The translations under genes were made by a program, and so were the position numbers. From NCBI RefSeq assembly GCF_037902255.1, contig NZ_CP147990.1, forward strand, positions 1,770,001 through 1,802,000: a stretch of 32,000 nucleotides of DNA, read 5' to 3'. Below the pieces are notes generated by a model that did no database searches, was not told the origin of the DNA, and was given only the letters and a program-made list of their open reading frames with translations. This DNA is from Candidatus Electrothrix sp. GW3-4 (lineage in GTDB: Bacteria; Desulfobacterota; Desulfobulbia; Desulfobulbales; Desulfobulbaceae). Shown here piece after piece: positions 22,074 to 30,395 of this stretch; positions within the stretch are counted from its first letter, which is position 1, and each line of letters begins with the position of its first letter.

Positions 22074-22835
22074 TTATCGTAGGCAGTTCGGAAGCATCAC
22101 CAGGAAGTCGATGCACTTGTCATAGTCAAGTTCGTAGAAATTGACTCCCAGGTGTATAGTTGCATAATATTCCGGTTGATGCTCTTTATAATACTGCTCC
22201 GATGGTATCTTCCAGAGGTGTTCACCGAGTTTTTCCGCCAGGAACCATTTTTCCAGCAGCCGCGCCGCTCGTCCGTTGCCGTCTCTAAAGGGATGAATAT
22301 GGGCAAAACGCAAATGGAGCAGGGCGGCAAAATAAAAGACCTCTTCCGTCGTCAGAGGAGTGGCGATAAGTTCTGCAACGCCGTTGAAGAAGGTCTCCAT
22401 TCCCTTCCCGATAAATTCAGGTTCTACGGCCAAATAGGCCATACCTGTTTTGCCAAACACACCGACGGGTTCAATTCGGTACGCGCCTCTTTTGCTCTTG
22501 ATCAGGAAGGTTGCAGAAAACATCTTGTGGCAATGGAGCAGATTTGCCTCTGTTAGCCTGTTTTGTTGGGCAAATCCATAGGCGGCAATGAGGTTTTCTA
22601 TTTCTTCGATCTCTTTTCCGGGTTTGGAGTTGGTCTGGCTGAGCTCATAATTCATGTATGAGTTCAGATCAACGCTGTTGCCCTCTATATTTGAGGAGTA
22701 GACAGCGGAGGCCTTGATCAGGTACTCGAATTGCCCGTTATCTTCTGAAAAGTCAAAGCGGGTGAGCAGGCCTTTAATCTGATTGCCTATGGTTTGTGAG
22801 TAGGCATCAAGATATGTTTTTTCTGTAACATTCAT
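22074..22835 (-). CDS. fic: Fic-family protein (AMPylase-type fold) with N-terminal inhibitory-helix motif
   Basis: A 253-aa ORF. The Fic active-site motif HPFRDGNGRAARLL matches HxFx(D/E)GNGRxxR. The upstream SSNIEGN matches the (S/T)xxxE(G/N) auto-inhibition motif of class II Fic proteins. Confidence 0.9.
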   Translation of the reverse strand: MNVTEKTYLDAYSQTIGNQIKGLLTRFDFSEDNGQFEYLIKASAVYSSNIEGNSVDLNSYMNYELSQTNSKPGKEIEEIENLIAAYGFAQQNRLTEANLLHCHKMFSATFLIKSKRGAYRIEPVGVFGKTGMAYLAVEPEFIGKGMETFFNGVAELIATPLTTEEVFYFAALLHLRFAHIHPFRDGNGRAARLLEKWFLAEKLGEHLWKIPSEQYYKEHQPEYYATIHLGVNFYELDYDKCIDFLVMLPNCLR

Positions 22836-22874
22836 GGTTGCTGGCTAACGTGTTGTTTTGGAAACGGTATCTCC

Positions 22875-22908
22875 GGGAGGGCGGATGATGTTACCTTTGA
22901 TAATCCAT
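22875..22908 (-). repeat. Copy 1 of the radical-SAM 5'-end repeat (orphan remnant upstream of fic)
   Basis: The minus strand reads ATGGATTATCAAAGGTAACATCATCCGCCCTCCC. Apart from one extra A it encodes MDYQGNIIRPP. As written it stops after 5 codons. Confidence 0.75.
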
Positions 22909-22992
22909 GTAGCCCTTTAAATGTTGATGGCCTGGTAAAAAGTCAGAAAACAGCAATTCTCTAACGACAACTCAACGAGTTACAATACGATT

Positions 22993-23019
22993 TTTCGCAA
23001 AATTGGACTTTTTGCGAAA
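22993..23019 (-). terminator. A/U-rich hairpin downstream of the ATPase-Toprim gene (possible terminator or operator)
   Basis: TTTCGCAAAA-ttggact-TTTTGCGAAA has perfect 10-bp arms and lies about 45 nt after the stop at 23063. Confidence 0.35.
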
Positions 23020-23062
23020 CCATCAAATGTTGCTCATAAACTCGATTAGAATCTATTGAGAT

Positions 23063-25048
23063 CTAGTCACCCAATATTCTTTTGTAGGTATCAATGACAT
23101 CTATCGGGAGCAAGCTAGGCATGTCTGCAAGAGTGCTTTCTATGATGTGTCTCATCAGCCCTCCTGCTTGATTATTATGAGGTTTTAGGAATCCGAATAC
23201 ACTCACCACACACTCCTCTAACCTATGATCATCAAGGTGTAGATAGTCTTTTCGTACCAGTAAGTTCATTCCATTTTGATACTCGATAGGCAGCTCATCC
23301 TCATTAAAACTCAAGTCTGATCCCAGAACCAACGATTGAAGCTTATTCACTGCCCGTTGCCATCTTTCTTGATCCCATCCGTTCAATCCCACATAGGTCT
23401 CCCCATCTTCAACCATACCTTTTTCACGCATAAAACGAATCTTGTTACGTACACATGATGCGAAAAGAATGGCAGGATCAAAGATTGCTGACTCCAAACC
23501 ATTTCGGATTGTTGGGGACAGCACCTTAACTCGTGTCGTTTCAGAAACGTTACCGTCCCAATCGACTAAACCAAACACGCTCTCATTGCCATTATCACAT
23601 AACGTCTTGACAATCCTCTGAACTTGAGCGCATCCGGCATTTGTTTCACCGCCAGATTCAGGCCTATGTCCTACCTCAATGAAATTCAATGATCTTTCCG
23701 ATCCGATATCGCCTTTATATGCCTGATAGAGAGATTCATAAATTCCTGCATCTGTTTTACTCTCAACGAATACCTGCCTTCTCCCTTCAAAGGAAATAGA
23801 TAACGTTGGAACCCCAGCCGTCAAAATGGACAGTGCTTCCCCTTTGCTGCATTTGTCGATCTGCGGTCCGATAGGGTTCATTTCATATAACGAATCCTCA
23901 TTGGCCAATGCCACAGTCGAAGGACTATGCGTTGTCAATATCACTGAGATGCCTTTTTCATCCACTAGGACTGACTGAATCGTTTTGAGTAGAGATACGA
24001 CCATTGATGGATGTAGAGGGGCATCTACTTCATCTAAAAGCAGCAGTCGTGGGAATCGTTTCTTCTGACGCGCATCACTTGCATTATACAAACATAGAGC
24101 AAACGACATTAAAACCTTCTCGCCAGACGACAGGTCACCGAATCTCATATCCACCTCTGACGACATTTTGTTTAGGCGGGGTTCAAATGATGCAGTTTCA
24201 TGCAACGGAGGAGAGTTAACCCGAAAATCCAGTTCGCAGACCGACAATATTCGGTTAACGAAATCCCATGGTGGTTCCCCGTACTCCTCAAGAAATCGTT
24301 CAGGCGATAGATGTACAACATCGCCGTCTGCTGGGGGATACTTCTCCAGTCTATCGTTCTGATGAATAAGATCGCGGTATGTAGAGAACAGTCTGCCGAA
24401 TGCCTGTTGGAAAGGGTCCACTTGTCCCCATAACAGACTCTTGTTGTTAAAGAACTTAGACTCAGAGGTCTCAAGGAATAATTCAGGATTTTCTTGAACT
24501 ACTTCGGGGGCTAGTTTTTTGAGGAATTCGTCACCGATATGGCGCTGCGTTTGATTGAAGATGTTTTGCCCATTTGACTTCTGAATGTTCTTTATCTTCT
24601 CATAGATTGCATCCACCTTGCTATCTTCAACGTGGTCTTTGAGTCGGGATTTGTTTAGGTTACGAATTTTATATATAGTAGAGCAGTGCTCTGAAGGGAT
24701 TCCCAAGGAGATAAGCTGCTGCTGTAGATTAGGAAGAATTTGGTCTTGTTGTGCTTTGATTTGGTTGAACCAGTTTGAACGCTGTATTAAATGTTGATGT
24801 ACATGAAACACTCCTGTGTCCTTGGGGATTATGCTATTCCAATCGTATAAAATTACATCATTTTGAATGTTCTGAACTAAGCTTGAGGAAACCTTCCCAT
24901 TGCTTAGAGCTTCCAATAAATGTGTCTTCCCTGACCCATTTCTGCCCGTCAGGATAACAAAACTAGGCAGGTCGATAGAGTTGAGTGAGCAAATCGATTT
25001 ATATAATGCGTTGAATGTAAGTGTATTCATGTGGTCAACTCTAGCCAT
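23063..25048 (-). CDS. Fused ABC-type (AAA_15/21-like) ATPase + DUF4435/Toprim-like nuclease domain protein (OLD-family or merged PARIS AriA-AriB-like)
   Basis: A 661-aa ORF. The ATPase motifs are Walker A LTGRNGSGKTHLLEAL (aa 33-48), ABC signature-like LSSGEKVLMSFAL (aa 306-318), Walker B RLLLLDEVDAPLHP (aa 334-347) and H-loop ILTTHSP (aa 370-376). The C-terminal half carries VFVESKTDAGIYESL (Toprim Glu), FGLVDWDGN (DxD-like) and RNGLESAIFDP. This is the pattern I associate with DUF4435. An alternative start is ATG 25030. Confidence 0.8.
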   Translation of the reverse strand: MARVDHMNTLTFNALYKSICSLNSIDLPSFVILTGRNGSGKTHLLEALSNGKVSSSLVQNIQNDVILYDWNSIIPKDTGVFHVHQHLIQRSNWFNQIKAQQDQILPNLQQQLISLGIPSEHCSTIYKIRNLNKSRLKDHVEDSKVDAIYEKIKNIQKSNGQNIFNQTQRHIGDEFLKKLAPEVVQENPELFLETSESKFFNNKSLLWGQVDPFQQAFGRLFSTYRDLIHQNDRLEKYPPADGDVVHLSPERFLEEYGEPPWDFVNRILSVCELDFRVNSPPLHETASFEPRLNKMSSEVDMRFGDLSSGEKVLMSFALCLYNASDARQKKRFPRLLLLDEVDAPLHPSMVVSLLKTIQSVLVDEKGISVILTTHSPSTVALANEDSLYEMNPIGPQIDKCSKGEALSILTAGVPTLSISFEGRRQVFVESKTDAGIYESLYQAYKGDIGSERSLNFIEVGHRPESGGETNAGCAQVQRIVKTLCDNGNESVFGLVDWDGNVSETTRVKVLSPTIRNGLESAIFDPAILFASCVRNKIRFMREKGMVEDGETYVGLNGWDQERWQRAVNKLQSLVLGSDLSFNEDELPIEYQNGMNLLVRKDYLHLDDHRLEECVVSVFGFLKPHNNQAGGLMRHIIESTLADMPSLLPIDVIDTYKRILGD

Positions 25049-25084
25049 ATAATTCAGGAAAGATCATCATTTGCAGAGCGTATT

Positions 25085-25116
25085 CAGACGCAAAAATACA
25101 AGTGTTGTTGCGTCTG
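25085..25116 (-). promoter_or_regulatory. Hairpin in the 5' leader of the ATPase-Toprim gene
   Basis: CAGACGCAA-(14 nt)-TTGCGTCTG has perfect 9-bp arms and lies 37-68 nt upstream of the 25048 start. Confidence 0.4.
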
Positions 25117-25160
25117 CGTCAGTTCCTATTCTAAGATGTTATCTTCTTGTGTGGGATAGC

Positions 25161-25176
25161 CTGTATACTAGTACAG
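25161..25176. promoter_or_regulatory. CTGT-N8-ACAG palindrome (E. coli-type LexA/SOS-box-like operator candidate)
   Basis: CTGTATACTAGTACAG lies about 115-130 nt upstream of the ATPase-Toprim start. A third half-site, ACTGTAC, occurs at 25268-25274. Confidence 0.35.
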
Positions 25177-25288
25177 TCAGGCGCAAATTACCCTATTCTT
25201 TCTGGAGCCGCTTTCCCGTTCTTTACAAGGTAGTTTGCTGTGAAAAGTAGCGCAAGACTTACGCCGCACTGTACTAGCCCTTGTAACC

Positions 25289-25700
25289 TTTTAAAAAAGT
25301 TCTCAGGTACTTTGATAAAGAGAGTACCTTAACTTTTTAAACGAGAGATTTCTATTCTTCTTTACCCCTCTTATTTGGGTTGAAACAGAGCGTGAGTTAA
25401 AAAAACACCAGCTCATTTCTCTCTTCCTGCTCTTCCATTTTAAAAATCAAGAGCTGAGAGGAAAAAACTGACGACCACTTTTTAAAAAAGGAGAGAGCAG
25501 TTTTAAAAAAGTATCGCCTCTTTTTTATCTCGCGCTTGTCCATTTTAATAATGGAGAGGCGTGAGCAGAAAGAGGACAGCACCATCTTTAAAAAGGAGTG
25601 ACACTTTTTAAAAAAGCACCTCTTCTTTTTCTCCTCGCACGTCTCATTTCTTTAAATGGAACGCTTGATTTTAAAACATGACAGTCTGATTTTTTCCTCA
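25289..25700. repeat. Array of eleven T(n)A(n) palindromes, including three degenerate ~105-bp tandem units
   Basis: Sites of type CA-TTTTAAAAA-GGA have their T/A steps at 25292, 25338, 25398, 25441, 25483, 25504, 25546, 25589, 25609, 25653 and 25672. The tandem units are about 25397-25500, 25501-25604 and 25605-25700, and they align with each other loosely. Each unit has a pyrimidine-rich arm, then CCATTTTAAWAAT, then a purine-rich arm. Confidence 0.8.
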
Positions 25701-25937
25701 CGCCAGTCGTGTTGCAAAATAGGGAGCAGCGAGAAAGAAAAGTGCGGCTTATTTTTCTTCAAAGGGCAGGTGAGAGCACAAGAGGAGATTGCCTGTGCTC
25801 AAAAGAAACGTTACTGAGCGAATCCCAGCGGCCACTGGGAAGAAACTCGAATCGTTGTTCTGTTCCCTGACAGTTCAACTGGCTATAAAACCTCAGCAAG
25901 GGAAAAGATGCAATCGAAATTCCAAGGTATAAGGAGC

Positions 25938-25959
25938 AAGGCGGCAGAAAAGCCGCCTT
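25938..25959 (-). terminator. Hairpin after the PLP-decarboxylase gene (putative terminator)
   Basis: AAGGCGGC-agaaaa-GCCGCCTT has perfect 8-bp arms and lies about 35 nt after the stop at 25995. The trailing U-tract is weak on the minus strand (GCTCCTTATACC). Confidence 0.45.
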
Positions 25960-25994
25960 GGGGTCAAAGGAGCTGGCCCAGGGAAAAGACGAAA

Positions 25995-27209: not shown

Positions 27210-27485
27210 CAACTCTCGCCTGTGAGATGAGCTGTGGTCATGAGTTCGGCAGGAGGCCTCTGAGCAGCCGCGTGGGCAACGCTGTCTCCCTCCTTACGGC
27301 CTGTAATCCAGAGCCGACAGGCTGGGCTGCCGCAGGAACAGGGGAATTGTTTAAAAAGGACATCCTCTGTTTCAGCGTAATCCATAAAGAGAAAGCTTCC
27401 TGCCTGGATATCACAAAGGGCAGTTACTGTCCGCCTCTCCATATCAAGAGAGATATTTGGGGAACAGGAGTGAAGAAAGTTAAAG
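27209..27485 (-). pseudogene. SET-domain protein, C-terminal fragment (gene split by IS3 insertion)
   Basis: The sequence NFLHSCSPNISLDMERRTVTALCDIQAGSFLFMDYAETEDVLFKQFPCSCGSPACRLWITG contains the SET motifs (N)HSCxPN and ELxxDY-like FMDY, and the post-SET CxCxxxxC. The listed ORF 27209..27709 reaches this frame only by reading through duplicated IS-end sequence. Confidence 0.75.
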
Positions 27486-27593
27486 TGGACCCCATAGTCA
27501 ACACAAAATTTGGCATAATTTAAGATAGATTTCGGGCTAACAACAACCTCTCTTATTTGATGATTTCCTCCTCTAGCTGCTTGACCTGTAAAG
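27486..27593. repeat. Extra tandem copy of the terminal ~108 bp of the IS3-family element
   Basis: Segment 27486-27593 and segment 27594-27701 both start TGGACCCCATAGTCAACACAAAATTT(G/A)GCATAATTTAAGATAGATTTCGGGCTAACAACAA. They stay similar for about 85-100 nt. Confidence 0.8.
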
Positions 27594-27699
27594 TGGACCC
27601 CATAGTCAACACAAAATTTAGCATAATTTAAGATAGATTTCGGGCTAACAACAAACTTTCTTATCTGGTGATTTCCTCCTATATTTGTTTGACTGTATC

Positions 27700-28392
27700 T
27701 CATGAGCAATAATGAATATCTTCAGGAGATCTGTACCCCAAAGACTGATGAGGACGTCGAGTGTTATAAAACGAAAAATACTCTTCCAGACCGTGGTATA
27801 ACTCATTGCCATTTCGATAGTCTTTCAGGTAGATATTTTCGTACTTTACTGTACGCCAAAGACGCTCGACAAAAATATTATCCAGTGCTCGGCCCTTGCC
27901 GTCCATGCTGATTTTTACATCAACATCTGTCAGGCGTTGTGTAAACTGCTTGCTTGTGAATTGCACTCCCTGATCTGTATTAAAAATATCGGGTAATCCA
28001 TGAGTTAATGCTTCATCAAGAGCTTCGACACAAAAATCGTTATCCATCGTATTGGATATACGCCAACTGAGGATGTATCGGCTGTACCAGTCAATAATTA
28101 CCGTCAGATACATGAAACCGCTCTGCATCGGAATATACGTGATATCAGTGCTCCAAACCTGATTGGGACGATCAATCAAGATGTTCCTCAAAAGGTATGG
28201 ATAAACTTTGTGTTCAATATTCCGATGAGTTAGTTTCGGTTTCGGGTAAATAGCCTCAAGCCCCATTAGGCGCATCAACCGTTGAACCCGTTTTCTGTTA
28301 ACATGAAAAGCACGCCGTTCCAGCTCGATGACCATCCGTCTGCTTCCGTAAAAAGGACAGTCGGTGTAGATCTCATCGATAATTCGCATCAA
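27700..28392 (-). CDS. IS3-family transposase OrfB (DDE integrase-core); frame stays open upstream to 28563
   Basis: The 230-aa track ORF begins at an internal Met. The same frame reads KKKSEPYSDPLDLIDSQHRSISIQRQCELLGISRSRYYYKPAVESELNLKLMRIIDEIY upstream of it. This is the usual OrfAB fusion region. Confidence 0.85.
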   Translation of the reverse strand: MMRIIDEIYTDCPFYGSRRMVIELERRAFHVNRKRVQRLMRLMGLEAIYPKPKLTHRNIEHKVYPYLLRNILIDRPNQVWSTDITYIPMQSGFMYLTVIIDWYSRYILSWRISNTMDNDFCVEALDEALTHGLPDIFNTDQGVQFTSKQFTQRLTDVDVKISMDGKGRALDNIFVERLWRTVKYENIYLKDYRNGNELYHGLEEYFSFYNTRRPHQSLGYRSPEDIHYCS

Positions 28393-28528
28393 TTTGAGGT
28401 TCAGTTCGCTCTCAACCGCTGGCTTGTAGTAATAGCGGGATCGACTGATGCCAAGCAGCTCACATTGCCTCTGGATGCTGATCGACCTATGCTGAGAATC
28501 AATTAAATCAAGGGGATCCGAGTAGGGC

Positions 28529-28870
28529 TCAGACTTTTTTTTTAAGCCAGTCCAGCTCCATTTTCAGACGACCGATTTCTTCGTATAAGCGTTTTTCAGC
28601 CTTGCGGGAATCATCTTTTGCTTTACCGCGTTTTCGGCTGAATATTTCGGTTACTCCTTCTTTTAGCTGCTTTTTCCAGGTGCTAATCTGGTTTGGCTGA
28701 ATCTCATACTGGGAGGCCAGTACATTAATCGGCTTTAGTTCTTTCAGTGCTTCAAGTGCAACTTTTCCTTTAAATGCAGCTGAGTGGACTCTTCTTTTAC
28801 GTGACATGCGTAGATTCTCCGGTAGTGGCTGTATGAATTTCGGACTCGTGCCAAGCGCACCAAAATACAT
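28529..28870 (-). CDS. IS3-family transposase OrfA
   Basis: A 113-aa ORF, SRKRRVHSAAFKGKVALEALKELKPINVLASQYEIQPNQISTWKKQLKEG...LKMELDWLKKKV. It ends within an A9 run (plus-strand T9 at 28535-28543). Confidence 0.85.
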   Translation of the reverse strand: MYFGALGTSPKFIQPLPENLRMSRKRRVHSAAFKGKVALEALKELKPINVLASQYEIQPNQISTWKKQLKEGVTEIFSRKRGKAKDDSRKAEKRLYEEIGRLKMELDWLKKKV

Positions 28871-29618: not shown

Positions 29619-29704
29619 TTTCTTTAAGTACCTCTCTTTATACATGAGGTGCCTGACTTTCTGGACGGAACAGGATTGCAAGGTTGCTGATCCTGGGCCG
29701 GAAA

Positions 29705-29785
29705 GTTGCTAAAGCCACAGCCGTCGTGAGGCGGTGTCGGAAAGCCACGGGTCTTTGGTAAAGGAGACAGCCGGGTTACCTACTT
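29705..29785 (+). promoter_or_regulatory. GEMM-I-like (cyclic dinucleotide, c-di-GMP-I class) riboswitch candidate
   Basis: The layout is GCTAAAGCC, a first hairpin, CGGAAAGCC, a second hairpin, then TTACC. The first hairpin is ACA-G-CCGTC GTGA GGCGG-TGT, with a GNRA loop. The second hairpin is ACGGGTCT..ttggtaaagg..AGACAGCCGGG. This resembles the GEMM-I consensus as I recall it: GGCAAA, P1 with GNRA loop, GACGCAAAGCC, P2, then CAGCCGGGUUACC. It ends about 20 nt before the AGGAGG RBS of the 29814 ORF. Confidence 0.55.
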
Positions 29786-29813: not shown

Positions 29814-30395
29814 ATGAAGGCAAGACATTCTCTACTCAGTGCTCGCATGACAGGAATAACGATTCTTTTCCTTATCGTTGTTCCTCTTGCGGCCCAAGCC
29901 GGGGTGCAGAAAGCCGTTGTTGTAGATGGTCACTATGAGGAGTGGGACTTGAAGGCAGACCGTTCACGTCCTATGCCGACTGAGCGGAGGACCCCGAGTA
30001 CCTGCAACACCGTGCATAACGGCCGGAAATGCATTGGAGAAGAGATACCGAATGTCTATTTACGCTATGACAGCATAACCAATACCGTCTTTGTTCTTGT
30101 CTTACAAAAAGACACCATAGAGGATGGGAAGAAGAAGCCGGTGGTCAATATCTATACCCTTGGGCAAAATATTCCGGTGAACCTTGATGACCCTGGGAAG
30201 ATTTCACATTTTTCCTGGGTTATGGATGCGGGACATCGCGTTGGTTGGGAGGGTGCCTTTCAATTGACCCCTGGGGTCTATGATTGTGATACAGGGCAGA
30301 GTACCCTTACAGGAGCTCAACCTGCCTCGGAAAAAAAGACAGCAGCAGAGGTGGAGGTCATCGACACAGAGGGGCTCTTTTTAAACTGTAAGTGA
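29814..30395 (+). CDS. Secreted hypothetical protein
   Basis: A 193-aa ORF with an AGGAGG RBS 8 nt upstream and signal peptide MKARHSLLSARMTGITILFLIVVPLAAQA. The mature part is beta-rich with several Cys residues. I do not recognise the family. Confidence 0.6.
   Translation: MKARHSLLSARMTGITILFLIVVPLAAQAGVQKAVVVDGHYEEWDLKADRSRPMPTERRTPSTCNTVHNGRKCIGEEIPNVYLRYDSITNTVFVLVLQKDTIEDGKKKPVVNIYTLGQNIPVNLDDPGKISHFSWVMDAGHRVGWEGAFQLTPGVYDCDTGQSTLTGAQPASEKKTAAEVEVIDTEGLFLNCK

What the first reader, a model, noticed from the sequence alone, without database searches (positions are those of the whole stretch)
25289..25700. Eleven helically phased TTTTAAAAA-type palindromes organised in three degenerate ~105-bp tandem units, upstream of the ATPase-Toprim gene
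There are eleven T(2-5)A(3-7) junction palindromes, with a consensus of roughly CA-TTTTAAAAA-GGA. Their T/A steps fall at 25292, 25338, 25398, 25441, 25483, 25504, 25546, 25589, 25609, 25653 and 25672. The successive spacings are 46, 60, 43, 42, 21, 42, 43, 20, 44 and 19 bp. Most of these are close to multiples of 21 bp, which is about two helical turns, so most sites face the same side of the helix. Sites 3-11 fall into three loosely alignable tandem units of ~105 bp. Each unit has a pyrimidine-rich arm, a central CCATTTTAAWAAT, and a purine-rich arm partly complementary to the first. Example pairings are GCTCTT/AAGAGC, CCATT/AATGG, CGCCTCT/AGAGGCG and GCTTGTCC/GGACAGC. The region has no credible coding capacity. 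The only listed ORF (25397..25585, minus strand) is a low-complexity read-through of the repeats. I see three possible readings. First, it could be an iteron- or centromere-like protein-binding array left by a plasmid or satellite backbone. Second, it could be a repeat-structured RNA transcribed toward the ATPase-Toprim gene, comparable in logic to type III toxin-antitoxin repeat RNAs. Third, it could be intrinsically curved upstream DNA. I cannot tell which from sequence alone, and I know of no described element with this layout next to OLD or PARIS-like genes.
Basis: seen in the sequence. Interest (0 to 1): 0.7.

Follow-up and report, generated by a model that had tools for sequence, protein, structure and literature searches.

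The report
Conserved 21-bp A/T lattice beside defence-gene slot
The T/A palindromes are real and belong to a strongly conserved, non-coding array of about eighteen 21-bp repeats in cable-bacteria chromosomes; the array sits beside a slot where different anti-phage genes are swapped in and out, so it belongs to that locus and not to the ATPase-Toprim gene.

Summary
Window 25397-25768 is a strict 21-bp lattice: about 18 rows, each an 11-bp A/T core plus a 10-bp G+C linker. The rows group into degenerate, dyad-symmetric 105-bp super-units.

The window comes from Candidatus Electrothrix sp. GW3-4. The same array, 83-96% identical and without a single indel, occurs in six other Electrothrix-type sequences. 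There it lies next to different genes: OLD ATPase-Toprim, a DRT8 reverse transcriptase, a CoiA-like nuclease, an SNF2-type helicase, an AAA_15 ATPase pair, or directly upstream of fic. None of about 20 loci carrying close OLD homologues in other taxa has it.

The array diverges 3-4 times more slowly than synonymous sites in the flanking genes. It shows no coding signature, no Rfam match, no common fold shared by its units, and no strand asymmetry in its pairing. No copy was found in plasmids, phages or viral contigs.

So it is a constrained non-coding element of a chromosomal defence-gene replacement hotspot (decarboxylase or recO – leader – array – cargo – fic).

My preferred mechanism is inferred, not shown. 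I read the array as a helically phased protein-binding lattice inside the transcribed leader that gates transcription into whichever cargo occupies the slot. A structured leader RNA is the main rival. The OLD-specific, type III TA-like and plasmid-relic readings are not supported.

The parts
25397..25768 (.). Array proper: about 18 rows of a 21-bp lattice, each an ~11-bp A/T core plus a ~10-bp G+C-rich linker. The rows are organised in dyad-symmetric ~105-bp super-units (x 25713-25768, a 25647-25712, b 25544-25646, c 25439-25543, d-partial 25397-25438).
   Evidence: Conserved at 83-96% with no gap columns in 7 sources.
25774..25800 (-). Hairpin H0 (GAGCACA...TGTGCTC) at the 5' edge of the array. 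It is duplicated on both sides of the upstream cargo in Electrothrix sp. Rat3.
   Evidence: One pair runs through G-C, G.U and A-U across genomes. The Rat3 duplication is shown.
25881..25994 (-). Conserved leader that follows the upstream gene (decarboxylase, or recO in L079).
   Evidence: 81-85% identical in L079, L081, L082, L085 and L090.
25937..25960 (-). Hairpin T0 (CAAGGCGGC/GCCGCCTTG), with no U-run after it. Probably a transcript-end or insulating stem-loop.
   Evidence: 4 of its 9 pairs covary among four haplotypes.
25909..25924 (-). Sigma-54-type -24/-12 motif TGGAAT-N5-TTGCA. A candidate promoter only.
   Evidence: Conserved in all array-bearing loci, with the GG lost in array-less US4. 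The loose pattern is expected 3.8 times per 32 kb by chance.
25806..25880 (.). Segment absent from L079, L081 and L090. It is partly shared with the cargo junction of Desulfobulbus sp. US4, so it is likely a mosaic remnant of an earlier cargo.
25345..25396 (-). Post-array segment homologous to the sequence between the array and fic in Rat3 (the 'empty' site) and to L079, L080 and L090. The cargo junction lies at about 25345.
   Evidence: plus direct reading of the sequences.
25049..25344 (-). 5' region specific to the OLD cassette. It holds T/A sites 1 and 2 (25292, 25338) flanking a terminator-like hairpin at 25305-25329. It is 100% identical to Ca. E. marina apart from the insertion.
25172..25277 (.). 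106-bp MITE-like insertion with 19-nt terminal inverted repeats and a CTAG target duplication. It is absent from Ca. E. marina.
   Evidence: (repeat I6).
23063..25048 (-). Current cargo: a 661-aa OLD-type ABC-ATPase with a Toprim-like C-terminal region.
22074..22835 (-). fic gene, the conserved right flank of the slot. The slot boundary lies at about 22865.
25397..25585 (-). 62-aa ORF running through the repeats. It stays open in all copies but shows no sign of coding selection.

Best explanation
WHAT IT IS (shown). The T/A palindromes are the A/T cores of a ~370-bp array of about eighteen 21-bp repeats. These repeats are grouped into dyad-symmetric 105-bp super-units. The array lies in a ~600-bp conserved non-coding module: hairpin T0, then a sigma-54-like motif, then hairpin H0, then the array. 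The module occupies a fixed chromosomal position in Candidatus Electrothrix, between an Orn/DAP-decarboxylase gene (or recO) and fic. That position is a replacement hotspot where unrelated single defence genes or small defence operons are exchanged. The OLD ATPase-Toprim gene is simply the present occupant of the slot. It was acquired, or exchanged with the Ca. E. marina lineage, very recently. The array itself is under purifying selection on both its sequence and its exact length. It is not translated.

HOW IT MOST LIKELY WORKS (inferred). The array acts at the DNA level as a helically phased docking lattice. One A/T-core site every two helical turns puts all sites on one face of the helix. 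An oligomerising DNA-binding or nucleoid-type protein, not yet identified, would assemble on these sites. The lattice lies downstream of the leader's candidate promoter and upstream of the cargo. Some cargo genes start only 20-26 nt after conserved non-coding sequence, with just a Shine-Dalgarno sequence in between. A bound lattice would therefore gate transcription into whichever cargo occupies the slot and into fic, by roadblock or silencing.

As a by-product, the conserved block supplies the left-hand homology arm for exchange of cassettes by homologous recombination.
For: Locus and hotspot:
- The window comes from Ca. Electrothrix sp. GW3-4.
- The array occurs in L001, L079, L080, L081, L082/83 and L090. 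The neighbouring cargo is OLD, DRT8 (E=8e-108), a CoiA-like nuclease, an SNF2/DEAD helicase, or an AAA_15 ATPase plus a 160-aa protein. In Rat3 there is no cargo between the array and fic.
- The array is absent from about 20 OLD-homologue loci.
- Recent exchange: window 25400 to ~22750 is 99.6-100% identical to Ca. E. marina, while the flanks are ~85% identical.

Constraint:
- Array divergence is 0.10-0.16, against synonymous divergence of 0.36-0.54 in the flanking genes.
- There are 0 gap columns in 15 pairwise comparisons. A control intergenic spacer between the same genomes is 84, 175 and 50 nt long and cannot be aligned.
- The only length change seen is a duplication of one whole unit, about 105 nt, in L081.

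Not coding:
- Variable sites are spread evenly over codon positions.
- Synonymous changes number 17 against 16.7 expected.
- Stop-creating variants number 3 against 3.0 expected.

DNA level rather than RNA level:
- The 21-bp lattice is unique among 27,115 windows.
- Within each row, the T-run and A-run are the least variable positions and the central base the most variable.
- T6A5 changes to T5A6 by substitution, which keeps the length.
- The units share no common fold.
- The alifold covariation term is about zero on both strands.
- Both strands fold equally well.
- In the dyad arms, G.U pairs number 135, A.C pairs 103 and other mismatches 242.

Transcription through the array: cargo start codons lie about 20-26 nt after conserved non-coding sequence in L079 and Rat3.
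Against: - No binding protein has been identified. No regulator gene is conserved next to the array.
- The rows do not share a specific recognition sequence beyond the T-run/A-run core. The best-conserved rows are unique purine- or pyrimidine-rich sequences, such as the invariant GAGACGTGCGAGGAGAAAAAGAAGAGGT.
- The array is dispensable. US4, L086-88 and AR5 lack it.
- Hairpins T0 and H0 in the same module show covariation typical of RNA stems, so the module is probably transcribed. An RNA role for the array is therefore not excluded.
- The variable central base of each junction can also be explained as a 1x1 mismatch in a junction-to-junction RNA helix.
- Recombination among lineages could contribute to the low divergence.
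- The promoter assignment is weak. No sigma-70-like site was found, and the sigma-54-like pattern is common by chance.
Confidence: 0.4

Rival explanations
1. Structured leader RNA. The array is transcribed from the leader promoter as a ~500-nt 5' UTR. Its inverted repeats form long imperfect helices that control the stability, processing or translation of the downstream cargo and fic mRNA. One possible route is pairing of CUCCUUUU motifs with Shine-Dalgarno regions. Another is that the helices act as an RNase III substrate.
For: - The array is on the same strand as, and lies between, the candidate promoter and the genes. Cargo genes with only 20-26 nt of private 5' sequence imply read-through.
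- Both strands fold better than shuffled sequence, with z = -3.4 and -5.0.
- Neighbouring hairpins T0 and H0 covary.
- One compensatory A-U to G-C pair occurs inside the array.
- There is a slight excess of G.U over A.C on the gene strand, 135 against 103.
Against: - The covariation term is about zero, with only 3-5 compensatory pairs among 78-133 predicted pairs.
- There is no consistent difference in folding energy between the strands.
- 17% of arm cells are non-wobble mismatches.
- The paralogous units share no fold.
- An RNA has no obvious need for a strict 21-nt A/T lattice or for complete indel intolerance in its loops.
- There is no Rfam match.
Confidence: 0.27
2. The array has no function of its own. 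It would be a decaying tandem or inverted duplication (a minisatellite or former mobile-element remnant) that persists because it is repeatedly co-transferred with cassettes. It would matter only as a substrate for homologous or unequal recombination at the hotspot.
For: - Rearrangements occur at the level of whole units: an extra unit in L081, a different last unit in L081, and a 94-nt duplicate flanking the cargo in Rat3.
- The array is absent from several relatives.
- Recombination at the locus is demonstrated.
- Cargo boundaries fall within or next to the array.
Against: - Divergence is 3-4 times lower than at synonymous sites in every genome pair.
- There are no indels, despite more than 14 slippage-prone homopolymer runs in each of 7 genomes.
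- Orthologous units are much more alike (83-96%) than paralogous units (64-72%), so there is no homogenisation.
- A control spacer between the same genomes cannot be aligned.
Confidence: 0.15
3. Cassette-capture site. The T/A junctions or units would be recombination sites for an unlinked site-specific recombinase. The locus would then be an integron-like platform for defence cassettes.
For: - The slot holds interchangeable cassettes, some of them promoterless.
- Several similarity breakpoints fall at T/A junctions: 25438 in L081, ~25397 in L079, and ~25345 next to site 2 in the window and L080.
- The cargo in Rat3 is flanked by a duplicated array segment.
Against: - There is no integrase or other recombinase in the window or in the relatives' loci.
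- There are no attC-type R/L boxes (direct reading of the sequence).
- Right-hand junctions differ between loci and carry no common motif.
- The identity decay into fic is gradual, as expected for homologous recombination.
Confidence: 0.07
4. The 62-aa ORF (25397-25585, minus strand) encodes a small protein with a heptad F-F-K repeat, and the 21-nt period reflects 7-codon repeats.
For: - The ORF is open in all seven copies at 62-79 aa.
- It was called as a gene in two JGI annotations.
- 21 nt equals 7 codons.
Against: - Variable sites are spread evenly over codon positions, 21/25/24.
- Synonymous changes and stop-creating variants are at random expectation.
- pN/pS is about 0.5 and no better than in other frames.
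- There is no Shine-Dalgarno sequence.
- The lattice extends about 180 bp beyond the ORF.
- All three codon positions are equally conserved, which points to constraint at the nucleotide level.
Confidence: 0.03
5. An OLD-specific accessory: a type III TA-like or retron-like repeat RNA that serves the ATPase-Toprim protein.
For: The array lies upstream of the gene and on the same strand in the window and in L001. The best PADLOC model for the protein is the retron type I-B ATPase-Toprim model.
Against: - None of about 20 OLD-homologue loci has the array or any 21-bp lattice.
- The array occurs with five other cargo types, and also without any cargo.
- The OLD cassette is 99.6-100% identical between two genomes whose arrays are only 87% identical, so the two parts have separate histories.
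- There is no reverse transcriptase next to OLD.
- The units share no fold.
Confidence: 0.02

Closest known systems
Core defence hotspots, replacement flexible genomic islands and Neisseria minimal mobile elements
   Same: Conserved flanking genes bracket a slot that holds unrelated defence cassettes in different strains. There is no integrase, and exchange is by homologous recombination of the flanks. P. aeruginosa cDHS1/2 and the distinction between 'replacement' and 'additive' islands are described in PMC10250203. Minimal mobile elements are named in PMC1538595.
   Different: This slot is small, with cargo of 1-3 genes. Instead of a tRNA or tmRNA gene, it is bordered by a ~600-bp conserved non-coding module that contains a 21-bp lattice. 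I found no repeat lattice mentioned for cDHS in the text searches of PMC10250203; I did not read the whole paper.
Iteron and centromere-type repeat arrays (plasmid iterons, R1 parC, pSK41 parC, F sopC 43-bp repeats)
   Same: Tandem repeats of about 20 bp (or about 43 bp) are spaced at whole helical turns, so that a cooperatively binding protein sits on one face of the DNA. Dyad symmetry is present within the repeats. This description of the known arrays is from my own knowledge.
   Different: The rows here share only a T-run/A-run core and no specific recognition sequence. No rep or par gene is adjacent. The context is chromosomal, with no plasmid or phage relatives. There are about 18 rows with a 5-row super-period.
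Integron platform (Pc/attI plus promoterless cassettes)
   Same: Interchangeable cassettes lie downstream of a shared non-coding platform. Some of them have nothing but a Shine-Dalgarno sequence of their own, so expression probably comes from a common upstream promoter.
   Different: There is no intI, no attC or attI core sites, one cargo unit per insertion point (at most two per locus, one on each side of the array) rather than an array of cassettes, and the junctions are heterogeneous.
Type III toxin-antitoxin repeat RNAs (ToxI, CptI, TenpI)
   Same: A tandem repeat block lies upstream of, and on the same strand as, a defence or toxin gene.
   Different: The units here are 105 nt at 64-72% identity, not about 36-45 nt and near-identical. 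There is no cognate endoRNase toxin, no fold shared by the units, and no co-occurrence with any one downstream gene.
Correia repeat-enclosed elements and other MITEs
   Same: The units are about 105 bp, dyad-symmetric and A/T-bounded, lie in an intergenic region, and could influence transcription. CREE properties are summarised in the abstract of PMC2649163.
   Different: The array is not dispersed in the 129 kb of Electrothrix DNA examined. The units are head-to-tail on a common 21-bp lattice, and no target-site duplications are seen. A genuine MITE-like insertion does lie nearby at 25172-25277.

Membership tests
Type III TA antitoxin RNA (ToxI-like) | Short (~34-45 nt), near-identical tandem direct repeats | tested here: not met
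   The units are about 105 nt and 64-72% identical. TRF does not detect them.
Type III TA antitoxin RNA (ToxI-like) | Obligate pairing with one cognate toxin gene immediately downstream | tested here: not met
   The downstream gene is OLD, DRT8, a CoiA-like nuclease, a helicase or fic, depending on the genome. About 20 OLD-homologue loci lack the array.
Type III TA antitoxin RNA (ToxI-like) | Each repeat adopts the same fold | tested here: not met
   The consensus fold of 12 unit copies reaches only -3.4 and -8.1 kcal/mol on the two strands.
Iteron / partition-centromere array | Tandem ~17-22-bp repeats phased on whole helical turns | tested here: met
   The lattice period is 21.0 bp, with power 10.9 against a maximum of 1.8 in shuffles. 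13 of 14 A/T blocks lie within 2.5 bp of the lattice phase. The 21-nt stacking shows the rows directly.
Iteron / partition-centromere array | Repeats share one specific recognition sequence | tested here: inconclusive
   Only the T-run/A-run core and the G+C-rich edges recur. The linkers differ from row to row.
Iteron / partition-centromere array | Adjacent rep/par gene, on a plasmid, phage or other replicon | tested here: not met
   The neighbours are housekeeping genes, with no rep or par gene. The locus is syntenic in Electrothrix chromosomes. There are no plasmid, phage or viral hits.
Integron | intI tyrosine recombinase next to the platform | tested here: not met
   None was found in the 32-kb window or in the relatives' loci.
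Integron | attC sites with R''/L''-L'/R' boxes (RYYYAAC / GTTRRRY) at cassette ends | tested here: not met
   Read directly from the junction sequences. No conserved core was found, and the right-hand junctions are heterogeneous.
Integron | Variable, largely promoterless cassettes behind a common promoter | tested here: inconclusive
   The cargo is variable. Two cargo genes start 20-26 nt after conserved sequence. The promoter is not established.
MITE / REP / Correia-type dispersed repeat | Many dispersed copies in the genome | tested here: inconclusive
   No copy lies outside the locus in 129 kb of Electrothrix DNA or in 708 kb of all held DNA.
Core defence hotspot / replacement island | Same conserved flanks, unrelated cargo in different genomes | tested here: met
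   At least six cargo types lie between the decarboxylase/leader and fic.
Core defence hotspot / replacement island | Exchange by homologous recombination of the flanks | tested here: met
   A 99.6-100% identical block (25400 to ~22750) is embedded in ~85% identical flanks, with gradual decay of identity inside fic.
Any described RNA family (Rfam 15) | Covariance-model match at or near the gathering score | tested here: not met
   The only hit in the window is a c-di-GMP-I riboswitch elsewhere. The best hits in the region have E>=0.26, far below the thresholds.
Sigma-54 promoter | -24 GG and -12 GC elements at canonical spacing (TGGCAC-N5-TTGCW) | tested here: inconclusive
   TGGAAT-N5-TTGCA at 25909-25924(-) is conserved in array-bearing loci. 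The loose pattern is expected 3.8 times per 32 kb by chance. No activator has been identified.
Intrinsically curved A-tract DNA | A-tracts repeated in phase with the ~10.5-bp helical repeat; anomalous gel mobility | not testable with these tools
   The periodicity is 21 bp with no 10.5-bp component. T(n)A(n) junctions are the non-curved arrangement (my own knowledge: Hagerman 1986). No curvature model or gel assay was run.
OLD-family nuclease (the neighbouring gene) | N-terminal ABC-type ATPase plus C-terminal Toprim | tested here: inconclusive
   The ATPase is clear: AAA_21 and AAA_15 in Pfam. The PADLOC ATPase-Toprim_I-B model matches at 1e-25, but only over residues 301-502. There is no Pfam Toprim hit and no PDB sequence match.

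The most novel reading that the evidence does not exclude
The leader plus the 21-bp lattice form a shared 'expression dock' for interchangeable defence genes. A dedicated promoter, possibly sigma-54-dependent, would drive transcription. A phased nucleoprotein lattice downstream of it would keep whichever cassette is plugged into the slot, and fic, silent until a signal releases it. This has integron-like plug-and-play logic, but achieved with homologous recombination and a protein-DNA gate instead of an integrase.
Probability: 0.2. Interest if true: 0.75.

Novelty: new variant of a known kind. Interest (0 to 1): 0.55.

Why it matters
Defence hotspots are usually described only by their flanking genes. 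How promoterless cassettes get expressed and regulated after they land is an open question.

Here a hotspot carries a long non-coding module that is under clear purifying selection. Its geometry is highly unusual: a 21-bp lattice kept free of indels, and unique among 708 kb of comparison DNA. If the module is a common regulatory or docking platform, it would give a concrete and testable model for coordinated control of exchangeable immune genes, in cable bacteria, a group that is hard to grow in pure culture and has no genetic tools that I know of.

The result also corrects a tempting but wrong association: a repeat RNA working with an OLD nuclease.

In addition, the slot nominates several single-gene defence candidates in Electrothrix: OLD, DRT8, a CoiA-like nuclease, a helicase, an ATPase pair, and a three-gene Lipase_3 system.

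Tried and rejected
1. Rfam at gathering and at permissive thresholds gave nothing relevant.
2. Co-occurrence with OLD. I fetched 78 loci of OLD relatives. Only the 99%-identical Ca. E. marina locus has the array.
3. Coding hypothesis. I tested pN/pS in six frames, codon-position counts, and permutation tests for synonymous changes and stop codons. All were at random expectation.
4. RNA structure. I ran single-sequence folds, RNAalifold on 5-6 orthologues for both strands, alifold on 12 paralogous units, and counts of G.U against A.C in the dyad arms. There was no convincing covariation or strand bias.
5. Plasmid, phage or satellite origin. blastn against plasmids and phages, and two pattern scans of viral contigs, found nothing.
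6. Integron idea. There is no integrase, no attC boxes, and the junctions are heterogeneous.
7. Dispersed MITE. nhmmer with a unit profile over 129 kb of Electrothrix DNA found only the locus itself.
8. A sigma-70 promoter scan of the intergenic region found 0 sites.
9. My first sigma-54 pattern used the wrong spacer (N9). I corrected it to N8.
10. Distant fic homologues (79% identity or less, in eCIS contexts) have no array.
11. Literature search on Electrothrix plus defence systems returned nothing relevant.
12. I did not run a DNA-curvature model, because I could not verify the wedge parameters from a source.
Full report
OBSERVATION

The region 25289-25700 holds 9 TTTAAA hexamers, against 8 in the remaining 31.6 kb. 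Dinucleotide shuffles of the region give a mean of 1.1 and a maximum of 6.

The ~105-bp units exist but are degenerate. Repeat family D1 has spacings of 106, 105 and 63 at 64-71% identity. TRF misses them.

Stacking the minus strand in rows of 21 nt shows what underlies the 21/42/43 spacings. About 18 consecutive rows each have an ~11-bp A/T core and a ~10-bp G+C-rich linker, from about 25768 to 25397. The periodogram of A/T tracts peaks sharply at 21.0 bp, with power 10.9. Shuffles reach at most 1.8 and the rest of the window at most 1.86. There is no 10.5-bp component.

The next best scores 3.4.

A unit profile matches its own reverse complement at E of about 1e-11 to 1e-14, so the units are dyad-symmetric.

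Sites 1 and 2 (25292, 25338) are not part of the array. They flank a terminator-like hairpin in the sequence specific to the OLD cassette.

WHERE THE WINDOW COMES FROM, AND THE NEIGHBOURING GENES

The 661-aa protein is 100% identical to a protein of Candidatus Electrothrix sp. GW3-4, a cable bacterium. It is an ABC-type ATPase whose best PADLOC models are ATPase-Toprim_I-B and AriA.

The neighbouring genes, all on the minus strand, are:
- downstream: fic (with a SoFic-like PADLOC hit), a radical-SAM gene and rlmN;
- upstream: an Orn/DAP-decarboxylase, a small SET-like ORF and an IS3 element.

The rest of the window is housekeeping: BipA, PFOR, a UvrD-like helicase and an MFS transporter. No recombinase, rep gene or par gene is present.

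THE ARRAY IS NOT TIED TO OLD

I fetched 78 loci of OLD relatives. Only L001 (Ca. E. marina, gene 99% identical) has the array. About 20 loci with 53-72% identical homologues have neither the sequence, nor TTTAAA enrichment, nor a 21-bp lattice.

Searching the protein database with the array's open frame recovered two metagenomic contigs:
- In L080 the same array precedes a DRT8 reverse transcriptase (PADLOC E=8e-108).
- In L079 it follows recO and precedes an unidentified gene that starts about 20 nt after conserved sequence.

A metagenome scan added L081, with the order decarboxylase – leader – array – CoiA-like nuclease (DUF7830/DUF6035/DUF7829) – fic.

Using fic homologues as anchors gave further loci:
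- Electrothrix sp. LOE2 has an SNF2/DEAD helicase as cargo.
- Rat3 has an AAA_15 ATPase plus a 160-aa gene inserted before the array and flanked by a 94-nt duplicate of the array's start. The array then sits 109 nt upstream of fic with nothing in between.
- Ca. E. marina has both that upstream cargo (93% identical) and OLD.
- Desulfobulbus sp. US4 and three JGI contigs have a three-gene cargo ending in Lipase_3 and no array.
- AR5 has no array.
- fic homologues at 79% identity or less lie in eCIS contexts without the array.

The locus is therefore a chromosomal replacement hotspot. The left flank is the decarboxylase or recO, followed by a conserved non-coding module. Then comes a slot with variable defence cargo. 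The right flank is fic, the radical-SAM gene and rlmN.

The window and Ca. E. marina are 99.6-100% identical from about 25400 to about 22750. On either side they are only about 85-88% identical, and identity decays gradually inside fic. This is the signature of a recent exchange by homologous recombination.

THE ARRAY IS UNDER SELECTION AND IS NOT CODING

Synonymous divergence between these genomes is 0.36-0.54 in fic, the radical-SAM gene, rlmN and the decarboxylase. The array differs by only 0.10-0.16.

In 15 pairwise comparisons of the 346-column core there is not a single gap column, although each copy has more than 14 homopolymer runs. By contrast, the intergenic spacer between the radical-SAM gene and rlmN is 84, 175 and 50 nt long in three of the same genomes and cannot be aligned.

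T6A5 changes to T5A6 by substitution, which keeps the length. The one length change seen is a duplication of a whole unit of about 105 nt in L081.

Orthologous units are 83-96% identical and paralogous units 64-72% identical. Each unit is therefore conserved individually.

The 62-aa ORF stays open in every copy. However, its 70 unique variants fall 21/25/24 on the three codon positions. Synonymous changes number 17 against 16.7 expected, and stop-creating variants 3 against 3.0 expected. pN/pS is about 0.5 and no better than in other frames. There is no Shine-Dalgarno sequence. The ORF is a by-product of purine- and pyrimidine-rich arms, which rarely contain stop codons.

DNA OR RNA?

Evidence that the module is transcribed:
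- Two cargo genes start 20-26 nt after conserved non-coding sequence, with only a Shine-Dalgarno sequence of their own.
- Hairpin T0 (25937-25960) has 4 covarying pairs out of 9.
- Hairpin H0 (25774-25800) shows a G-C, G.U, A-U series at one pair.
- A sigma-54-type -24/-12 motif (TGGAAT-N5-TTGCA, 25909-25924) is conserved in array-bearing loci and degraded in US4. The loose pattern is expected 3.8 times per 32 kb by chance, so it is only a lead.
- No sigma-70-like site was found.

Evidence against an RNA-structure function for the array itself:
- The RNAalifold covariation term is about zero, with 3-5 compensatory pairs among 78-133 predicted pairs, on either strand.
- Both strands fold equally well in all six genomes.
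- In the dyad arms there are 949 Watson-Crick cells, 135 G.U, 103 A.C and 242 other mismatches.
- Twelve copies of units b and c share no common fold, at -3.4 and -8.1 kcal/mol.

What the paralogous rows do share is the lattice. The T-run and A-run are the least variable positions, the single central base is the most variable (11 of 18 rows), and the linkers are intermediate.

This pattern, together with the absolute conservation of spacing at two helical turns, is what a row of dyad-symmetric protein sites on one face of the DNA would look like. I therefore favour a DNA-level docking lattice. I must note that an RNA junction-to-junction helix could also explain the variable centre, and that no binding protein is known.

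MECHANISM (INFERRED)

I propose that an oligomerising DNA-binding or nucleoid-type protein occupies the A/T cores cooperatively. The array lies between the leader's candidate promoter and the cargo. The complex would therefore gate transcription into whichever gene occupies the slot, and into fic, by roadblock or silencing.

The shown steps are conservation, phasing, position, cargo exchange and lack of coding. The inferred steps are protein binding, the regulatory effect and the identity of the promoter.

The conserved block also serves as the left homology arm for cassette exchange. The recent-exchange block ends at about 25400, inside the array.

COMPARISON WITH KNOWN SYSTEMS

The locus behaves like a core defence hotspot or replacement-type flexible island (PMC10250203) and like Neisseria minimal mobile elements (PMC1538595).

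The array resembles iteron or centromere arrays in its geometry only. It lacks a shared recognition sequence, an adjacent rep or par gene, and a replicon context.

It fails the defining tests for type III TA RNAs, integrons and Rfam families. It was not found dispersed like a MITE in the DNA available, although the whole genome could not be scanned.

VERDICT

The proposed link to the ATPase-Toprim gene is wrong. What is there is a selectively maintained 21-bp lattice belonging to a defence-gene exchange slot in cable bacteria. Its function is unproven, and it has no described counterpart that I could find.

I rate it a new variant of known kinds (phased repeat arrays and defence hotspots), with interest of about 0.55.

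Noticed in passing
window 22750-25400 vs L001: The OLD cassette, its 5' region and the start of fic are 99.6-100% identical to Ca. Electrothrix marina. The surrounding chromosome is only ~85% identical. This indicates a very recent exchange between lineages by homologous recombination.
   Followed up: yes
window 25172-25277: A 106-bp insertion absent from Ca. E. marina. It has 19-nt terminal inverted repeats (CTAGTACAGTCAGGCGCAA / TTACGCCGCACTGTACTAG) and a CTAG duplication, so it looks like an IS5-type MITE. No second copy was found in 129 kb of Electrothrix DNA.
   Followed up: partly
window 22926-23031: A second 106-bp window-specific insertion, between the OLD stop codon and fic. It is flanked by the direct repeat CAACATTT and is unrelated in sequence to the first insertion.
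   Followed up: partly
window 25806-25880: A 75-nt segment between the leader and hairpin H0. It is missing from L079, L081 and L090 but partly shared with the cargo junction of Desulfobulbus sp. US4 (L085 1136-1168). It looks like a scar of an earlier, different cargo.
   Followed up: partly
window 25937-25960 (minus strand): A hairpin directly after the upstream gene (decarboxylase, or recO in L079), with four covarying base pairs among four haplotypes and no U-run. It may be a transcript-end or insulator stem-loop belonging to the conserved module.
   Followed up: partly
window 29704-29783 (+): A c-di-GMP-I riboswitch (58.7 bits, E=3e-9) upstream of a 193-aa ORF (29814-30395) that has no Pfam match.
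   Followed up: no
window 27481-27693 and 27700-28870: An IS3-family element (HTH_Tnp_1 ORF 28529-28870 and rve ORF 27700-28392). Beside it is a 108-bp tandem duplication (1.9 copies, 91-94% identical) that overlaps the small SET-like ORF.
   Followed up: no
L080 383-1195; L081 3310-4593; L090 2879-4901; L082 4862-6450; L085 1631-6628: The same slot in related cable bacteria holds a DRT8 reverse transcriptase, a CoiA-like nuclease (DUF7830-DUF6035-DUF7829), an SNF2/DEAD helicase plus a 76-aa protein, an AAA_15 ATPase plus a 160-aa protein, and a three-gene set (an ~810-aa protein, a metallophosphatase-like protein and a Lipase_3). Several of these are uncharacterised candidate defence systems.
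   Followed up: partly
L089, L091, L092, L093: fic homologues at 73-79% identity in other taxa sit inside or next to extracellular contractile injection system loci (eCIS_core genes) and toxin-antitoxin pairs. This suggests the fic family travels as an effector or toxin cargo.
   Followed up: no
L081 2570-2745: The array copy in this metagenomic contig carries an exact extra ~105-nt unit and a different terminal unit. Copy number therefore varies in whole units, which preserves the 21-bp phase.
   Followed up: yes
window 25397-25585 (minus strand); P0121, P0122: The repeat-derived 62-aa ORF has been called as a 'hypothetical protein' in two JGI metagenome annotations. The evidence here indicates that it is a spurious gene call.
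   Followed up: yes
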